Assembly (NCBI GenBank): GCA_038231435.1
Contig: JBBRLJ010000017.1
Coordinates: 44,676-108,675, forward strand
Length of the DNA: 64,000 bases
Direction of reading: 5' to 3'
Source: Planctomycetota bacterium
GTDB taxonomy: Bacteria > Planctomycetota > UBA11346
Each line of letters begins with the position of its first letter. Positions within the stretch are counted from its first letter, which is position 1. A program made the position numbers. Below, in pieces: positions 41,501-47,500 of this stretch.

Positions 41501-44500
41501 GCCGCAGATAACGCGGAGAAAACGGCGCCGCCTTTCGCGTTTCCCGAGCAATACCAGGTCGATCAGGTCGTGACCTCGCCGCAGGGCACCATGACCATGA
41601 ACGTCGCGCGCGATGGCGATCAGGTGCGGTCCGATATGGATGCCCAGGGCCACAAGGTGTCGATGATCGCGCGGCCCGACCTCAAGCTCACCTACATCCT
41701 GATGCACGAACAGAAGATGATGGTGCAGCAGCCGTACAATGACGCCGCCTTCGCGAATCCGGCGCGCGACAAGAGCGCCACCTGGAAGAAGACCGGCAAC
41801 GAGAAGCTCAAGGACGTCGACTGCGACACCTATGACCTCACCACCTCGACGGGCGAGGTCTGGAAGGTGTGGGCGAATCCGAAGGACCAGACGCTGGTGA
41901 AGCTCGTGAACGACGCGAAGAAGACCACCATGGAGTTCGATCACTGGAAGTTGACCAAGCCGGATAGCGCGCTGTTCGAGCCGCCGAAGGACTACGCCAA
42001 CGCCATGACCGCCGGCGGTCCTCCGCGCGGCCCCGGTGCGCCGGGTGGCCCCGGTGCGCCGGGTGGTCCCGGCGGTCCCGGCGGTCCCGGTCGCCCCGGT
42101 CCTCCGGGACCTGGTGGTCCCGGAGGCCCCGGCGCCCAGAACGGCCCGCCTCCCGGGACCGGCGGCCCCGCCGGTCCCGGCAACGCGCCGCCCCCGCGCC
42201 CCCCAGGCCCCGGCCAGGCTCCGCCCCCCGGCGCCCCCCCGGCCCCGCCCGCGCGCTGAGATCCGCCGCCGTCGGCCGTCCGCTCCTTCGCTGCCGGCCC
42301 TGAAGCTGGCGAACGTCGCTCGCTCCTTCGCATCCTGCGCTGAACGGCCGAAGGCCGCGCCAACCCGCGCCAGCATCCGGGCTCTGCAATGGGGCGGAGC
42401 CCCTGCGCAAAAAAGCCCGTGGGGTAGGCCCGCAGGGCCGTAGGGGCGGAGCCCCTTTGATTACTTAGACGGAATGATGCGGAAGACTTGCGCGCCCCAC
42501 GGACCGAGCTGCACCTCGATCGCCTTCTCGGCGAGGGTCTCGGCGCGCACCTGGTAGGGCGCGCCGCCGGCGAGGTAGTCCTGGAATTGGCAATCGCGGT
42601 CGGCGAGCGGGCCGATCTCGATCGCGCCGGTGGTGGGCTGCCAGCTGGCGTTCACCACCATCAGCAGCCAATGGTGCGCGGGCAACGTCCACAGGCATGC
42701 CACCAGGCTGCGACTGCGTTCGCCGCGCGGCTCGAGCAACATCCAGGTGCCGTCGTGCCGCGCCGGTTCGCTCAAGAGCTTGAGCAGCTCGCGGTACGCA
42801 TTGCGATGCGCCTCGGAACCTTCCTCGGGGGGCCGGCGCGAGGAATGCAGCGACGCATGCAGGCGGCGGCCGTCCTCCTGGCCGTGATGGCAGAGCAGCA
42901 TGCCCGGGACCATGCCGGTGATGAACAAGGCGCCGCGGTGGTGGTCGGGAAACGGGAAGCGCGCAGCCGCGCGCTGCTCGTCGTCGTTCTCGAGGAAGCG
43001 CACGCAATGCGACTGGTAGTCGGCGCTGGCGCGAAGATGGGCGCGGATCGACTCGGCATCGTCCGAGAGCAGACGGTCGTAGAGGATCTTGTCGTAGGTG
43101 AAATCGAAGCCGACCTGTTGGAGCTCGTACTCGCGGTTCCAGTACACCTCGGCCATGAAGATGGTGCCGGGGTGCTCGGCGCGGACGCGGTCGAGGCAGC
43201 GCCGCCAGAACGGCTGCATCGCCCGGTTCCAGGTGCTCTGGAAGACGTCGGGCAGGAGCAGCATCGCCTCGTCGCAGCGCAGGCCGTCGCAGCGCGCGGC
43301 GATCGACGACGCCGTGCGAATCATCTCCTCTTGGCAATCGGGATTGCCGTAGTCGAGCTGCAGGGTGTTGCGCCACGGAGCGAAGAACGGATCGCGCCCG
43401 TGCGCGAAGACCTTGCCGTGGAGCTTCACGTAGGCGTCTGGCTGCTGGCGCAGCAGATACTCGTTGCCGAGGATGAAGAATTCGGGGTGCGTGGCCGCCC
43501 ACGGATGGTCGAGCCCGACATGGTTGGGAATGAAATCGAGCATCAGCGACAAGCCGCTCGCCTGCGCGCGCTCGCGCAGCCGCGCCAAGGTCTCGTCGCC
43601 GCCGAGCTCCCCGGGGACCTCGTAGCCAGCGTGCGCGAGCGGCGAGCCGCAGATGTCGGCGTCACTGAACTCGGGCAGCACCGAGGCCAGGTATTGGCGC
43701 AGCGGATCGTCGCCGAGCGACAGCTGGCGGCTCAACGGCCCAGTGCGCCACACCCCGAGCAGGTACAGCCAGGTGAAACCGTTCTCGACCAGGTGGTCCA
43801 GGAACTCGTACGACAGGTCATCGAGCGTCGCCGGTCGCCCCAGCTCGCGCGACCGGTCGGTGCGCCACGTGCGCACATTGAGCTCGTACAACTGGTGCAT
43901 GGGCGCGTGGAGTGTAGTTCACTGCCGGGACCCGCAACACTTGTCGCCGCAGGTTGAACGATCACGCGAGCGACACCTCGCATCCACCCAGACCCAGGGC
44001 CGCCGATCGGCCGCGCCGGCAGACCGAAGTCTGCGCCACGCAGGCCAAGCGCGCAGCGCGCAGCAGCCCGTGAGATCACGTCGCGCGGTATGGCCACGAA
44101 TCACTGCTGACAAGTTTCCCGCGATGGGGGGCAGCGCCGGAGGCGCGTTGACGGGGGGCGAGCGCTTCGCGAGCCGAAGGCCCTTCGGGGCATTCGCTGG
44201 CGTCGTCCTCGATCCCCTAGTGTGCACACAGGGCTGCCGATCGGCCGCCACGGCCGATCGAGCTCATGCGCCCCGCGTGGGCGGAGCGCGCAGCGCGAGC
44301 AGCCCGACGGCTACAGCTTGATTTCCGGCTTCCTCACCGCCACGCCGTAGGCGCCGAGGGCGGTGGCCAGCTCCTGAACCACGCTCTGGCCGCTACCGGG
44401 CGCGCGGTAGAGGTCGAGGTCGGTGTACTGGGCGAGGTCGCCGATGCGCGAGACGCCGAGGTCCTCGAGCACCTTGGCGGTGCGGTTGGCGAGCTCGAGC

Positions 44501-47500
44501 TTCTCGACCGATTCGCCGAGGATCTTCTGGTCGGCCTTCGAGATCGAGCGCTCGTCGCCCTCGCGGAACATGCCCAGGCGCAGGTTGCGCGCCGCGAGCA
44601 TCTCTTTCACTTCCTTCAGCGAGGTCTCGCCGAAGTTCTTGTACGAGAGCATCTCCTGCTCGGTGATGCGCAGCAGGTCGCCGAGGGTGAAGATGTTCAT
44701 CTTCGCCAGGCAGTTGCGCGAGCGCACCGACAGTTCGAAGTCGTTGACCGAGGTGCGCATGATCTTCTCCATGCGCTCACGCTCGCGCTCCTCGCGCTCG
44801 TCGTAGTACATGGAGCGCGAGGCCTTGGCGTCGCGCAGCAGGGTGAGCGCGCGGCGGTCGCGCGGGTTGTAGGCCAGCACTTGGCGGAAACAGTCGAGCG
44901 CCGCGTTGGATTCCCCGCGCTCCTCGTAGAGGATGCCCAGGTTGGTGACGGCCGGCAGGTAGGCGGGAGAGGCGTCGGCGCACACCAGGTAGTGCTCGGC
45001 GGCGAGATCGTCGTCGCCGATGCGGTCGAGCAGGACGCCGATCTTGAAGGCGGCTTCGACGTGCTGCGCGTCGGCTTCGAGCGCGGCCTCGAAGGCCTTG
45101 ATGGAGGCCTCGATCTGCGAGCGGGCCTCGAGGATGCGGCCATTGAGGAAGTCGCGCTCGGCGCCCTCGGCGACGCTGGCGAGGGCCTTCTCGGCGGCTT
45201 CATCGTCGCCGCCATCGAGCAGCGCGCGCACCAGTTCGCCCTTGGCCTCGGTCATGGTCTTGGCCGCGATCTGGAAGGCGGTCTTGGCGTCGCCGTACTC
45301 GCCGAGCTCGGCGTTGATCATGCCGAGCAGGGCCTGGCCGTAGGCGTCTTTCGGATCGATCATCTCCTCGGCGTCCGAGAACTTGCCGAGCGCGAACGCC
45401 AGCGCGGCGGTGCGCAGCTTGTCCTTGACCCCGGGGATGCCGTCGGCCAGCAGCGCGGCGAGCTTGGTGCGCTCCTCGGCATCCTGGGTCGCGACGCGGC
45501 GCAGGACCCGCACCTGGGCGAGGGTCGGGCGCTCGGGCGCGGTGAGGATCTGGGCGCTGCGGGGAAGGGTGGCGGTGGGCATGGCTGACCTCGATCTGGG
45601 TGCTCCCGCGCGCCCTGGACCCATGGCCAGGGCCATGGAAGGGGTGCGGGAGATTGGTGCTGGCGGAGAAAAGGGCTCACACGATAGCGGTGAGGGAGGC
45701 GGGGCAAGGGGGGGATGGACGGAGGACCGTCGTCTGGGGAGGGAAGGACCGCCGTCCGTCTGTCGTCATCCGGCGATAACGGCAAGCCGACAGACCACGG
45801 TCGCCATCCGGGACGCCTCAGGCGGCGCGCACCGCCACCGCCAGCTTCGCCAGCAGCTCATCGATCTCAGCCGCGGTGATGATCAAGGGCGGCGCCAGGC
45901 GCAGGGTGTTCCCTCCCGACGGTCCGACGACCAGGCCTTCGGCGAGGCAGGCCTTCACCAGGGCGCCGGGATCTTGGGCGAGCTGAACTCCCAGCAGCAG
46001 GCCCTTCCCGCGCACCTCGGTGCCGGCGCCGAAGATCGCGCGCAGGCCGTTGGCGAGCTGCTCGCCGCGCTGAGCGATTCTCTCGATGAAACCAGGGGCG
46101 AGCACCACATCGAGCACCGCGAGCGCCGCCGCGCAGGCGAGCGGATTGCCGCCGAAGGTGGTGCCGTGCATGCCGGGTTTCAGCAGGTCGGCGGCCTTCG
46201 GCGCATACAACACCGCGCCGATCGGCACGCCGCCGCCCAGGCCCTTGGCCAGGGTCATGATGTCCGGGACCACGCCGGTCTCGTGCTGGTACGCGAAGGC
46301 CCTGCCGGTGCGGCCGACTCCGGTCTGGATCTCGTCGACCACCAGCAGCGCCTGATGCTGGTCGCACAGGCGCCTGAGCTCGGCGAGGAACCCGGCCGGA
46401 GCCGGGCGCACGCCGCCCTCGCCCTGGATCGGCTCGACGAATACCGCGGCGACGTCAGGGCCCATGGCCCTGGCCAGCGCGGAGGCGTCGCCGAAGGGCA
46501 GGAAATCGGCCGCGGGCAATGGTTCGAAGGGCTCGCGATAGGCGGGATTCGCCGTGATCGACAGAGCACCGAGAGTGCGCCCGTGGAAGCCGTTCTGGAA
46601 GGCGACCATGCGCTTCTTGCGGCCACCGTGGGCCTGGTTGCCCCACAGCCGAGCCACCTTGTAGGCGGCTTCGTTGGCCTCGGTTCCCGAATTGCAGAAC
46701 AACATCCTGCCCGGGAAGGCGGCGCCGACGATGCGCGCCGCCAGGGCCTCTTGCTGGGGGATGCCGTAGTGGTTCGAGACATGCGCGAGGGTGGCCGCCT
46801 GGCGCGAGATCGCCTCGACCAGCCGAGGGTGGCCATGGCCGAGCGAGCTGACCGCGACTCCGGCGAAGGCGTCGAGGTGGCGGCGCCCCAGGTCGTCGAT
46901 CAGGTGGCAGCCCTCGCCGCGCACGAAGCGCACATCCTGGCGCTTGTAGTTCTGCACCAGGAAGGAGGGGTCGGCCTGGCCCGATGCGGGACCGGCTCCG
47001 GAGGCCGGCGATGGGTGTGCGAGCTTGCTCACGGCGAGCCTCCTGGGGAGTCGTATCGTTGCTCGCCATCGTGAGATGCAAGGCGGCGACTGGGGGATTC
47101 CGCGAGCATGATGTATGCCGATATGGCAATTGCAGCAGGAGGGGGCGGGCTACACTCCGCGCCATGCCACGGAAGGCCATACGACGAGGACCCGCCCGCG
47201 CGTCCGTCCGTGCTCATGCATCGCCACTGCTGCGTGGTCGTGCATGAGCGGCAGCGATCCTGCCGCCACCCCCGCCACCCCCGCCGCCTTCCGCCATTGG
47301 GGCCGGTGGTTTTGGCCCGTGGCTCTGAGCGTGTTGGTGCTCGATCAGCTGACCAAGTGGTGGCTGTTCGCTCTGCCCGGCAATACCCGGCTGCCGACGT
47401 GGATCCTGCCTGCCCAGAACTCGGGGGTGGCCTGGAGCATCGGCCACCAGTGGCCCTGGGCGGTGACGCTGGTCACGGCGCTGCTGCTGCCCGCGCTGGC

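What a model noticed while it worked through the whole genome (the two positions that open the first line are those of the whole stretch)
44311..45582. Orphan protein with a TPR domain and two tandem RNA-polymerase alpha C-terminal domains
Besides the normal rpoA (g03772) the genome encodes g01956 (423 aa): an N-terminal TPR region followed by two copies of the alpha-subunit C-terminal domain (alphaCTD) and no alpha N-terminal (assembly) domain. The first copy keeps the residues that alphaCTD uses to contact DNA and activators (L-S-V-R-S-R-N-C-L, N-F-G-x-x-S-L-K-E), the second is degenerate. The protein is kept at 67-91% identity and constant length in >100 database clusters from Planctomycetota, a conservation typical of core machinery, yet is annotated only as 'TPR protein' or wrongly as RpoA.
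Evidence so far: Pfam RNA_pol_A_CTD twice (267-330, 349-409) plus TPR_16/TPR_8; Swiss-Prot best hits are RpoA C-termini only, 51-54% id over res 262-338. Alignment of both copies with this genome's own RpoA CTD. 120 best database hits: all 393-453 aa, 67-100% identical, covering 93-100% of the query; names given: 'DNA-directed RNA polymerase subunit alpha' (JGI), 'tetratricopeptide repeat protein', 'alpha C-terminal domain-containing protein'.
(Added by a program. Inside this text positions count along the whole contig: contig position 44,676 is position 1 of the stretch shown here. "Call 12" and the like, gene names such as g00115 and contig names such as C1 are that model's own, and its searches are not shown. 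The text may have been shortened before it was handed on; [...] marks where a part breaks off. The agent that wrote the report below was given it as the finding of a first reader that could run no searches.)

Follow-up and report, generated by a model that had tools for sequence, protein, structure and literature searches.

The report
Planctomycete TPR protein with two alpha-CTDs
This is a real, strongly conserved gene of the phylum Planctomycetota that joins a TPR protein-binding scaffold to two copies of the DNA- and sigma-contacting tail domain of RNA polymerase alpha; its function is untested, and its likely counterpart in a model planctomycete is essential.

Summary
Observation confirmed. 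Window 44311-45582 (minus strand) encodes a 423-aa protein with a TPR superhelix, two RNA_pol_A_CTD domains and no alpha N-terminal domain. The genome's true rpoA lies on another contig.

- **Distribution:** phylum-wide, 385 of 401 Planctomycetota genomes (240 of 243 high-quality ones).
- **Residues:** CTD1 keeps the alpha-CTD DNA-contact residues and the acidic sigma-4 contact patch, both invariant or nearly so. It is more conserved across the phylum (71.7% mean identity) than RpoA's own CTD (54.4%).
- **Second copy:** CTD2 is degenerate only in this genome's family; elsewhere it is canonical.
- **Essentiality:** the likely Planctopirus limnophila counterpart, Plim_0602, sits in that organism's essential-gene set (PMC10632474 supplement).
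- **Literature:** my searches found no functional study.

Best reading (0.5): a promoter-DNA/sigma-contacting adaptor whose TPR domain holds an unknown partner. Rivals are an AT-tract nucleoid protein, a decoy for alpha-CTD-binding regulators, and a non-DNA adaptor. This scan noted the same family twice before on other genomes. I rate it a new variant of a known kind, interest 0.7.

The parts
44311..45582 (-). Whole coding sequence, 423 aa plus stop (P0001)
   Evidence: Open frame. The start at 45582 is supported by a nearly invariant Met1 column in alignment A1. Matched end to end in same-family genomes.
44812..45561 (-). TPR superhelix, residues about 8-257: 16 helices, about 7-8 helix pairs plus a capping helix
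   Evidence: Pfam TPR_16, TPR_2, TPR_1 and TPR_8 above cut-off. AlphaFold2 helices 8-257 with pLDDT mostly 93-98. Foldseek best matches are consensus TPR, OGT and APC/C TPR chains. Net charge of residues 1-250 is -12.
44785..44811 (-). Conserved junction between TPR and CTD1 (residues 258-266; M258, D261 and E262 nearly invariant)
   Evidence: Alignment A1. Region 251-279 is 89.4% identical among 118 close clusters.
44572..44784 (-). CTD1, a canonical alpha-CTD (HhH)2 domain, residues 267-337. R287, N290, C291, N316, G318, S321 and E324 correspond to E. coli R265, N268, C269, N294, G296, S299 and E302. D281 and E283 correspond to D259 and E261.
   Evidence: PF03118 at 78 bits. Pfam stretch 267-330. 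Hits to solved RpoA chains at E down to 3.7e-15. Residue mapping. Invariance across 53 sequences. 96.2% identity among 118 close clusters.
44539..44571 (-). Flexible linker between the two CTDs (residues 338-348)
   Evidence: pLDDT below 50 at 341-346. Low conservation (0.28) and variable length, 18-52 residues with median 26, measured over residues 338-355.
44338..44538 (-). CTD2, a degenerate alpha-CTD, residues 349-415. The arginine at the R265 position is kept. The positions of V264, N268, C269, N294, L295 and S299 are replaced, and the domain is acidic.
   Evidence: PF03118 at 31.4 bits. Residue table. Core net charge -3.5 in the 6 same-family sequences against +1.36 in 47 others. Still 76.2% identical among 118 close clusters.

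Best explanation
The protein is a cytoplasmic adaptor specific to Planctomycetota. It carries two copies of the RNA polymerase alpha tail on a TPR scaffold in place of the alpha assembly domain.

Shown:
- The gene is real and single-copy.
- It is near-universal in the phylum.
- It is built as a TPR superhelix, a conserved junction, CTD1, a flexible linker and CTD2.

Inferred:
- CTD1 binds the DNA minor groove as alpha-CTD does. It would do so through R287 (E. coli R265) and the helix-hairpin-helix contacts N290, C291, N316, G318, S321 and E324.
- The invariant acidic pair D281/E283 corresponds to the E. coli '261 determinant', which touches sigma region 4. That pair would place CTD1 beside sigma at promoter-upstream DNA.
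- The TPR domain holds a protein partner, either RNA polymerase itself or a regulator. The protein would then tether that partner to promoter DNA, or supply alpha-tail contacts in trans.
- In most of the phylum CTD2 is a second DNA-reading head on an 18-52-residue tether, mimicking the two tails of the alpha dimer.
- In this genome's family CTD2 has lost the DNA-contact residues, has become acidic and is still conserved. There it probably serves as a protein-contact or regulatory module.
For: - **Architecture:**
- **Copy number:** only three PF03118 matches in the genome, two here and one in rpoA.
- **Distribution:** 385 of 401 phylum genomes match at E<=1e-20, and 240 of 243 high-quality ones. 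All 150 listed places reach at least query residue 338, so they include CTD1; the other 235 matches were not listed. Two of five 'missing' genomes checked hold the gene, broken by an N run or by a contig end.
- **CTD1 residues over 53 sequences:** R265 53/53, N268 51/53, C269 53/53, N294 53/53, G296 53/53, S299 53/53, E302 53/53, E261 53/53, D259 49/53.
- **RpoA CTDs of 30 phylum genomes:** position 259 is variable (E9, S6, D4, V4) and position 261 is D18/E5.
- **Origin:** F295 and T298 are shared by the phylum's RpoA (25/30, 26/30), CTD1 (53/53, 53/53) and CTD2 (43/47, 40/47). This fits an origin from the phylum's own rpoA.
- **Conservation:** mean pairwise identity over E. coli columns 255-315 is 71.7% for CTD1 against 54.4% for RpoA CTD. 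CTD1 core charge (+0.96) is like that of RpoA CTD (+1.07).
- **Meaning of the determinants:** 265 = DNA, 261 = sigma region 4, 287 = CRP and other activators (PMC1874639, passages read).
- **Essentiality:** Plim_0602 is the only gene besides rpoA (Plim_0499) that my supplement searches returned with the COG0202 label, and it also carries the TPR label COG0457. It is listed in the sheet behind the essential-gene heat map. Its insertion index is 7.38e-4, against a stated lowest cut-off of 0.013 and 3.96e-3 for rpoA.
- **Expression (weak):** contigs from RNA libraries of 4 studies lie on the gene at up to 97-98.5% identity. None lies on the flanks 43900-44254 or 45604-45816.
Against: - There are no functional data for any member.
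- Position 297 next to the DNA-contact loop is acidic in CTD1 (E50 + D3 of 53), where RpoA has K (26/30). Position 298 is T, not K. Both could weaken DNA binding.
- The TPR domain is strongly acidic (-12) and its partner is unknown.
- No gene of the transcription machinery is a conserved neighbour. Neighbours are SpoIID-like (30 of 81 loci), RuvA (27 of 81), then TGT, YajC and SecDF. This window's own neighbours differ from those.
- RpoA keeps its own CTD in the phylum genomes searched, so the protein does not replace a lost alpha tail.
- That Plim_0602 is the orthologue rests on its COG labels and on a length implied by its insertion index (1/1355). It was not checked by sequence.
- The list of individual DNA-contact residues N294, G296, K298 and E302 is recalled from the E. 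coli literature. Only N268, C269, S299 and R265 were seen in passages.
Confidence: 0.5

Rival explanations
1. Nucleoid-associated architectural protein. The alpha-CTD heads bind A/T-rich minor grooves genome-wide and the TPR domain mediates self-association or bridging. The role would resemble that of H-NS or Lsr2 type proteins and would be independent of RNA polymerase.
For: - Two minor-groove-type DNA heads on a flexible tether, joined to a protein-interaction domain.
- H-NS (PF00816) was not found in 0 of 101 phylum genomes searched, and Lsr2 (PF11774) in 0 of 101.
- The P. limnophila paper states that planctomycete DNA is highly condensed, most likely by DNA-binding proteins (passage).
- The likely counterpart is essential.
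Against: - The sigma-contact patch D259/E261 is invariant in CTD1, which a pure nucleoid protein would not need.
- This genome's family has given up the DNA-contact residues of CTD2, leaving one DNA head per chain.
- Self-association is not shown.
- The analogy to H-NS and Lsr2 is recalled and concerns function only. There is no homology.
Confidence: 0.2
2. Adaptor unrelated to DNA. The alpha-CTD folds have been re-used as protein-protein modules, and the protein acts in another core process, for example envelope or secretion biogenesis as the conserved neighbours might suggest.
For: - The gene lies 4-190 bp upstream of a SpoIID-like gene, followed by TGT, YajC and SecDF. This holds in MAGs labelled Phycisphaerae and in MAGs labelled Pirellulales.
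- CTD2 of this family is acidic and lacks the DNA-contact residues, yet it is conserved.
- E at position 297 in CTD1.
Against: - Every alpha-CTD DNA-contact residue that the phylum's RpoA keeps is invariant or nearly so in CTD1. That is hard to explain without DNA binding.
- No signal peptide or membrane helix is visible in the sequence (by eye).
- The SpoIID-like neighbour is seen in 30 of 81 loci only. It is replaced by RuvA in 27, and neither is present in this window.
Confidence: 0.15
3. Decoy or buffer. Free alpha-CTD modules would compete with RNA polymerase for activators, sigma region 4 or UP-like DNA and so tune transcription globally.
For: CTD1 copies the interaction surfaces of alpha-CTD more faithfully than the phylum's own RpoA does: 78 against 61.4 bits to PF03118 in this genome, and D259/E261 are invariant.
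Against: - A decoy needs no large conserved TPR domain or conserved junction.
- Likely essentiality and phylum-wide single-copy retention are unusual for a pure competitor.
Confidence: 0.1

Closest known systems
C-terminal domain of the bacterial RNA polymerase alpha subunit (RpoA alpha-CTD, Pfam PF03118; E. coli residues about 249-329)
   Same: - Both C-terminal domains match PF03118 above its cut-off.
- CTD1 is 49% identical to E. coli alpha-CTD over 61 columns.
- CTD1 keeps R265, N268, C269, N294, G296, S299, E302, D259 and E261.
- A flexible tether separates the heads, as in alpha.
   Different: - There is no alpha N-terminal assembly domain; a TPR superhelix stands in its place.
- Two CTDs sit in one chain.
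- Position 297 is acidic.
- NCBIfam rpoA models score 101-108 bits against cut-offs of 228-302.
- It is encoded away from the true rpoA.
Plim_0602 of Planctopirus limnophila (TraDIS study, PMC10632474)
   Same: - It carries both the RNA polymerase alpha COG (COG0202) and the TPR COG (COG0457).
- Its insertion index 7.38e-4 equals 1 insertion in 1355 nt, which implies a protein of about 451 aa, inside the family's length range.
- It is listed among the essential genes.
   Different: Orthology was not checked by sequence here. The paper's main text does not mention the gene. The COG-level heat map gives it the same universal profile as rpoA, which hides its restriction to the phylum.
H-NS / Lsr2 type nucleoid proteins (functional analogy only, recalled)
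   Same: An interaction domain, a flexible linker and a minor-groove DNA head. These families were not found in 101 phylum genomes searched.
   Different: No sequence or fold relationship. Oligomerisation is not shown. CTD1 keeps a sigma-contact patch.
Other non-RpoA proteins with alpha-CTD-like segments: BREX PglW (NCBIfam NF033442) and 845-859-aa proteins with two PF03118 stretches plus Sigma70_r4 (P0273-P0281)
   Same: They carry alpha-CTD-like modules outside RpoA.
   Different: The PglW model scores 33.8 bits against a cut-off of 990. The Sigma70_r4 fusions are only 30-32% identical over the CTD region, and no TPR family was recorded or found for them.

Membership tests
RpoA, DNA-directed RNA polymerase subunit alpha (TIGR02027 / NF003513) | N-terminal dimerisation and beta/beta' assembly domain | tested here: not met
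   No alpha N-terminal Pfam family at E up to 1. NCBIfam rpoA models match only their positions about 205-320 and score 101-108 bits against cut-offs of 228-302.
RpoA, DNA-directed RNA polymerase subunit alpha (TIGR02027 / NF003513) | It is the genome's single full-length alpha gene | tested here: not met
   A separate full-length rpoA (330 aa) lies on contig C56. RpoA was found in 60 of 61 phylum genomes.
Alpha-CTD domain (Pfam PF03118, RNA_pol_A_CTD) | Profile match above the gathering score | tested here: met
   102 bits for the protein (cut-off 23.8). The two copies score 78 and 31.4 bits, both over the cut-off.
Alpha-CTD domain (Pfam PF03118, RNA_pol_A_CTD) | DNA-binding '265 determinant' residues | tested here: met
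   CTD1 has R265, N268, C269, N294, G296, S299 and E302 conserved in 51-53 of 53 sequences. K298 is T, as in 26 of 30 RpoA CTDs of the phylum. CTD2 of this genome does not meet the feature: N268, C269, N294 and S299 are replaced. DNA binding itself cannot be tested with these tools.
Alpha-CTD domain (Pfam PF03118, RNA_pol_A_CTD) | Compact helical (HhH)2 fold | tested here: inconclusive
   The AlphaFold2 model gives short helices at 286-331 and 349-411, with pLDDT about 84-95 over most of these helices. Sequence hits to solved alpha-CTD chains reach E 3.7e-15. The whole-model Foldseek search returned only TPR folds, and the CTDs were not searched alone.
Tetratricopeptide repeat proteins (Pfam TPR clan) | Repeated helix pairs that match TPR profiles | tested here: met
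   TPR_16 45.7 bits (cut-off 32.7), TPR_2 37.1 (27), TPR_1 35.3 (27.8), TPR_8 35.2 (25.7). 16 helices in the model. TPR superhelices are the best structural matches.
BREX PglW | Match to the equivalog model NF033442 | tested here: not met
   33.8 bits against a cut-off of 990. Only the alpha-CTD-like stretch matches.
H-NS / Lsr2 type silencers | Homology to the Histone_HNS or Lsr2 DNA-binding domains; oligomerisation domain | tested here: not met
   Neither family appears in the Pfam list of P0001. These are considered as functional analogues only. Oligomerisation cannot be tested with these tools.

The most novel reading that the evidence does not exclude
The protein is an essential, phylum-specific accessory subunit of the planctomycete transcription apparatus. 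It would be a 'third alpha tail' that docks on RNA polymerase or sigma through its TPR domain and supplies the promoter-upstream DNA and sigma-region-4 contacts in trans. CTD1 would have taken over the sigma-contact role, which the phylum's own RpoA CTD keeps only loosely.
Probability: 0.25. Interest if true: 0.85.

Novelty: new variant of a known kind. Interest (0 to 1): 0.7.

Why it matters
Alpha-CTD is the textbook docking point for UP-element DNA, sigma region 4 and many activators, and it is known as part of RpoA. Here an entire phylum keeps a second, free-standing pair of these domains on a TPR scaffold.

The first copy is more conserved than the polymerase's own tail. The likely counterpart in the one planctomycete with a genome-wide essentiality map is essential. 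If the protein acts at promoters, promoter recognition or activation in Planctomycetota uses a component absent from the model bacteria. Those organisms are already known for unusual cell biology and condensed nucleoids.

The gene has been hidden by annotation as 'TPR protein' or 'RpoA' and by COG-level analyses. P. limnophila is genetically tractable, so the question can be tested directly.

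Tried and rejected
- **Homodimer prediction** (two copies, alignment A1): no answer, score 0.00, controls not run. It says nothing for or against self-association.
- **Foldseek of the whole model against the PDB:** only generic TPR superhelices, with no informative two-domain match.
- **Literature searches** (full text of PMC open access plus bioRxiv):
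  - 'alpha C-terminal domain' + tetratricopeptide + Planctomycetes: 0 papers.
  - Planctomycetes + 'RNA polymerase alpha' + TPR + 'C-terminal domain': 1 paper, on cyanobacterial CRP-binding sites; only its title and abstract start were seen, nothing on this protein there.
  - 'alpha-CTD' / paralog / standalone: none of the 15 listed papers held 'alpha-CTD'.
  - 'alpha CTD' + Planctomycetes: 0.
  - Plim_0602: 0.
  - The V. spinosum essential-genome paper (PMC12283558, passages): nothing on this gene.
- **Supplement search** for 'RNA polymerase alpha' and similar phrases, and later for PF03118: nothing found. The gene was found through Plim_0499 and TPR. The paper's essentiality table (MOESM4) was too large to read.
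- **Synteny as a clue to function:** the neighbours are lineage-specific (SpoIID-like, RuvA, TGT, YajC, SecDF). This window's own neighbours are a class-III aminotransferase and an alpha-amylase-family protein, which those loci do not share.
- **Fused forms longer than 741 aa:** none of this family; only 9 unrelated proteins combining alpha-CTD with Sigma70_r4.
- **Promoter and terminator scan of 43800-45900:** 0 promoter-like sites. One terminator-like site inside the gene on the opposite strand, within the number expected by chance.
- **RNA runs:** all 24 hold at most 0.12 of the sampled words. The contigs laid are mostly from relatives and cover the gene in patches, so uncovered parts and habitat mean nothing.
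- **A tree of the CTDs to date the duplication:** not built. E. coli was the only outgroup in hand and the domain has about 60 columns.

Full report
**Observation.** The coordinates given are window coordinates. Window 44311-45582 on the minus strand is an open frame of 423 codons plus a stop. An upstream ATG at 45636 would add 18 residues. Met1 of the 423-aa form is a nearly invariant column in a 53-sequence alignment, which supports the shorter form.

Pfam finds RNA_pol_A_CTD at E 1.4e-29 in two stretches, and several TPR families above their cut-offs. It finds no alpha N-terminal family. NCBIfam rpoA models match only with their C-terminal part and stay far below their cut-offs. Solved structures matched by sequence are TPR proteins and the C-termini of RpoA chains.

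In the whole genome (5.2 Mb, 108 contigs, 87.6% complete) PF03118 matches three places. Two are in this gene, at 78 and 31.4 bits. One is in the true rpoA on contig C56, at 61.4 bits. The first copy therefore fits the alpha-CTD profile better than the polymerase's own tail does.

**Family and distribution.** The best 120 clusters of the 5.8-billion-protein collection are 393-453 aa long, 67-100% identical and cover 93-100% of the query. They are named 'RNA polymerase subunit alpha', 'tetratricopeptide repeat protein' or 'alpha C-terminal domain-containing protein'.

Among representatives clustered at 50% identity, 311 reach E<=1e-30. By my count of the table, 122 of the best 150 are 422-507 aa long, usually matched in two stretches.

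In a sample of 401 genomes of the phylum, 385 have a match at E<=1e-20, as do 240 of 243 high-quality genomes and 277 of 287 genera. Same-family genomes match end to end at 60-78% identity. The matches listed from other families are at 35-49%. All 150 listed places reach at least residue 338, so they include CTD1; the other 235 matches were not listed.

I checked five of the 16 genomes without a match:
- One holds the gene interrupted by a run of N.
- One holds it cut by a contig end.
- One shows only a 73-aa alpha-CTD fragment at a contig end, which could be either gene.
- Two show only RpoA, one of them 99% complete but in 310 contigs.

A scan of one genome for each of 185,579 species found at least 593 relatives. 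Of the best 80:
- 76 bear Planctomycetota-lineage names. These include Phycisphaerae, Sedimentisphaerales, Gemmataceae, Isosphaeraceae, Pirellulales, Brocadiaceae including Kuenenia, Singulisphaera and Fontivita.
- Two are labelled 'bacterium'.
- One is labelled 'Anaerolineales'.
- One is labelled 'Alphaproteobacteria'.

Of the 21 genomes in the relatives search around the 'Alphaproteobacteria' genome (that genome included), 20 carry the gene. They often carry a shorter form without the N-terminal TPR half. The 'Anaerolineales' locus shares the gene order of Phycisphaerae loci. I therefore read both labels as doubtful. The ten nearest ESM Atlas clusters all combine PF03118 with TPR, with Planctomycetota as the commonest phylum. 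Presence in other phyla was not measured beyond this.

**Anatomy and residues.** I aligned the two copies, the genome's own RpoA CTD and E. coli RpoA. The E. coli sequence was translated from NC_000913. P0001 residue n+22 corresponds to E. coli residue n in CTD1.

Counts at key E. coli positions, from 53 family members and the RpoA CTDs of 30 phylum genomes:

| E. coli position | CTD1 (of 53) | Phylum RpoA CTD (of 30) |
|---|---|---|
| R265 | 53 | 30 |
| N268 | 51 | 30 |
| C269 | 53 | 27 |
| N294 | 53 | 27 |
| G296 | 53 | 30 |
| S299 | 53 | 27 |
| E302 | 53 | 30 |
| E261 | 53 | D18, E5 |
| D259 | 49 (E in the other 4) | variable: E9, S6, D4, V4 |
| 297 | E50 + D3 | K26 |

The E. coli lysine K298 is T in CTD1 (53/53), in CTD2 outside this genome's family (40/47) and in RpoA (26/30). 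E. coli L295 is F in the same three sets (53/53, 43/47, 25/30). These shared states fit an origin of both copies from the phylum's own rpoA. I had no other phylum than E. coli for comparison.

The meaning of the determinants is taken from passages of PMC1874639. The 265 determinant contacts DNA, 261 contacts sigma region 4, and 287 contacts CRP and other activators. The roles of N294, G296, K298 and E302 as DNA contacts are recalled, not read here.

**Strength of conservation.**
- Mean pairwise identity over the columns of E. coli 255-315 is 71.7% within CTD1, 54.4% within the phylum's RpoA CTDs and 49.0% within CTD2. The genome samples differ but both are phylum-wide.
- Along the protein, the majority-residue share in the 47 non-family sequences is 0.31 for the N-terminus, 0.38 and 0.54 for the two TPR halves, 0.60 for the junction, 0.80 for CTD1, 0.28 for the linker and 0.60 for CTD2.
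- The linker between the CTDs is 18-52 residues long, median 26.

**What is special in this genome's family.** Outside the family the consensus of CTD2 is a canonical alpha-CTD. In the six same-family sequences of the alignment:
- V264, N268, C269, N294, F295 and S299 are replaced.
- R265 stays as R or K.
- The core charge is -3.5, against +1.36 elsewhere.
- P0001 CTD2 is 23% identical to its own CTD1.

CTD2 is nevertheless 76.2% identical among 118 close clusters. That is more than the TPR region (68.3%) and less than CTD1 (96.2%). It is under selection for something other than the ancestral DNA contact.

**Context.** In the window the gene lies between a class-III aminotransferase (45818-47032, minus strand) and an alpha-amylase-family gene (42461-43900, minus strand), with gaps of 235 and 410 nt. 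I clustered six-frame ORFs of 80 named loci plus the window. Downstream on the same strand I found:
- a SpoIID-like gene in 30 of 81 loci;
- RuvA in 27;
- further on, TGT (23), YajC (21) and SecDF (24).

Nothing is conserved upstream apart from a glycosyltransferase in 12 loci. No transcription gene is a conserved neighbour, and none of these neighbours is in this window.

**Expression and essentiality.** Contigs from metatranscriptome libraries of four studies lie on the gene. The closest are 97-98.5% identical: 44405-44718 with 10 differences, 44532-44729 with 3, and 44612-44822 with 5. None lies on the flanks 43900-44254 or 45604-45816. The tool warns that DNA can be present in RNA libraries, so this is weak support.

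In the P. limnophila TraDIS paper (PMC10632474; passages and supplement rows seen, not the whole text) Plim_0602 carries both COG0202 (alpha subunit) and COG0457 (TPR). It is listed in the sheet behind Fig. S3, which the text describes as the essential genes. Its insertion index is 7.38e-4, that is 1 insertion in 1355 nt. The stated lowest cut-off is 0.013 and rpoA (Plim_0499) scores 3.96e-3.

The main text does not mention the gene. Its heat-map row shown (COG0202) carries the same values as the rpoA row, because those values are COG-level, which hides its restriction to the phylum. Orthology was not checked by sequence, and the essentiality table itself could not be read.

**Structure.** AlphaFold2 with the 53-row alignment gives mean pLDDT 91.5 and pTM 0.69. 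The model shows:
- 16 helices from 8 to 257;
- a helix at 262-275;
- a helical bundle at 286-331;
- a low-confidence stretch at 341-346;
- a second bundle at 349-411.

The fold search returned only TPR superhelices.

**Mechanism.** I commit to a promoter-DNA/sigma-contacting adaptor (0.5).
- CTD1 would read the minor groove through the R265-equivalent arginine and the HhH contacts. It would sit next to sigma region 4 through the invariant acidic pair.
- The TPR domain would hold an unknown partner, RNA polymerase or a regulator.
- In most of the phylum CTD2 would be a second DNA head, so that one chain mimics the two tails of the alpha dimer.
- In this family CTD2 would have been turned into a protein-contact or regulatory module.

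Only the anatomy, conservation and distribution are shown. DNA binding, sigma contact and the TPR partner are inferred. Against this reading stand the acidic residue at position 297, the acidic TPR domain, the lack of transcription-related neighbours and the absence of any experiment.

Rivals:
- An AT-tract nucleoid protein (0.2). H-NS and Lsr2 were not found in 101 phylum genomes.
- A non-DNA adaptor (0.15).
- A decoy for alpha-CTD-binding factors (0.1).

**Known or new.** The domains are textbook and databases already hold the family under misleading names. My literature searches found no paper that treats this protein. This scan noted the same family twice before on other genomes. Those notes agree with what I find. 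I partly tested their claims on essentiality and expression here.

The protein is not a member of RpoA, since it lacks the assembly domain and a true rpoA exists. Both C-terminal domains are members of the alpha-CTD domain family. I rate it a new variant of a known kind: alpha-CTD used outside RNA polymerase alpha, phylum-wide and probably essential.

Noticed in passing
P0273-P0281 (database proteins): Nine proteins of 845-859 aa combine two RNA_pol_A_CTD stretches with a Sigma70_r4 domain (P0273: PF03118 at 105 bits, Sigma70_r4 at residues 327-366). This is a different non-RpoA use of alpha-CTD. Their organisms are unknown.
   Followed up: partly
window 47841-52160 (+): A 1439-aa ORF with an N-terminal Arf/Rag-like small GTPase region (Pfam Arf at residues 62-182) followed by a protein kinase domain (363-555) and a long C-terminal part. 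It is an unusual GTPase-kinase fusion, next but one to the gene studied.
   Followed up: partly
G402:C5:136426-136599 (genome of locus L026): A fourth PF03118 match (45.4 bits) in an open frame of only 155 aa. It may be a small free-standing alpha-CTD protein in that genome, besides RpoA and the TPR protein.
   Followed up: no
Genomes G405-G424, relatives of G401: In this clade the family's gene often sits in an open frame of 313-405 aa that starts at profile position about 99-128. The N-terminal half of the TPR domain is missing, which suggests that the indispensable core is the C-terminal TPRs, the junction and the two CTDs.
   Followed up: no
L133 (G059) 1712-2776 and L132 (G084) 390-1454: In two small genomes (2.1-2.2 Mb) of one family the gene is followed by a conserved 354-aa protein that looks like a lipoprotein. 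The TPR-like C-terminus was judged by eye only.
   Followed up: no
L026 and L062: Two MAG records labelled 'Anaerolineales' and 'Alphaproteobacteria' carry this planctomycete gene, with planctomycete-like gene order or relatives. Their taxonomic labels look wrong.
   Followed up: partly
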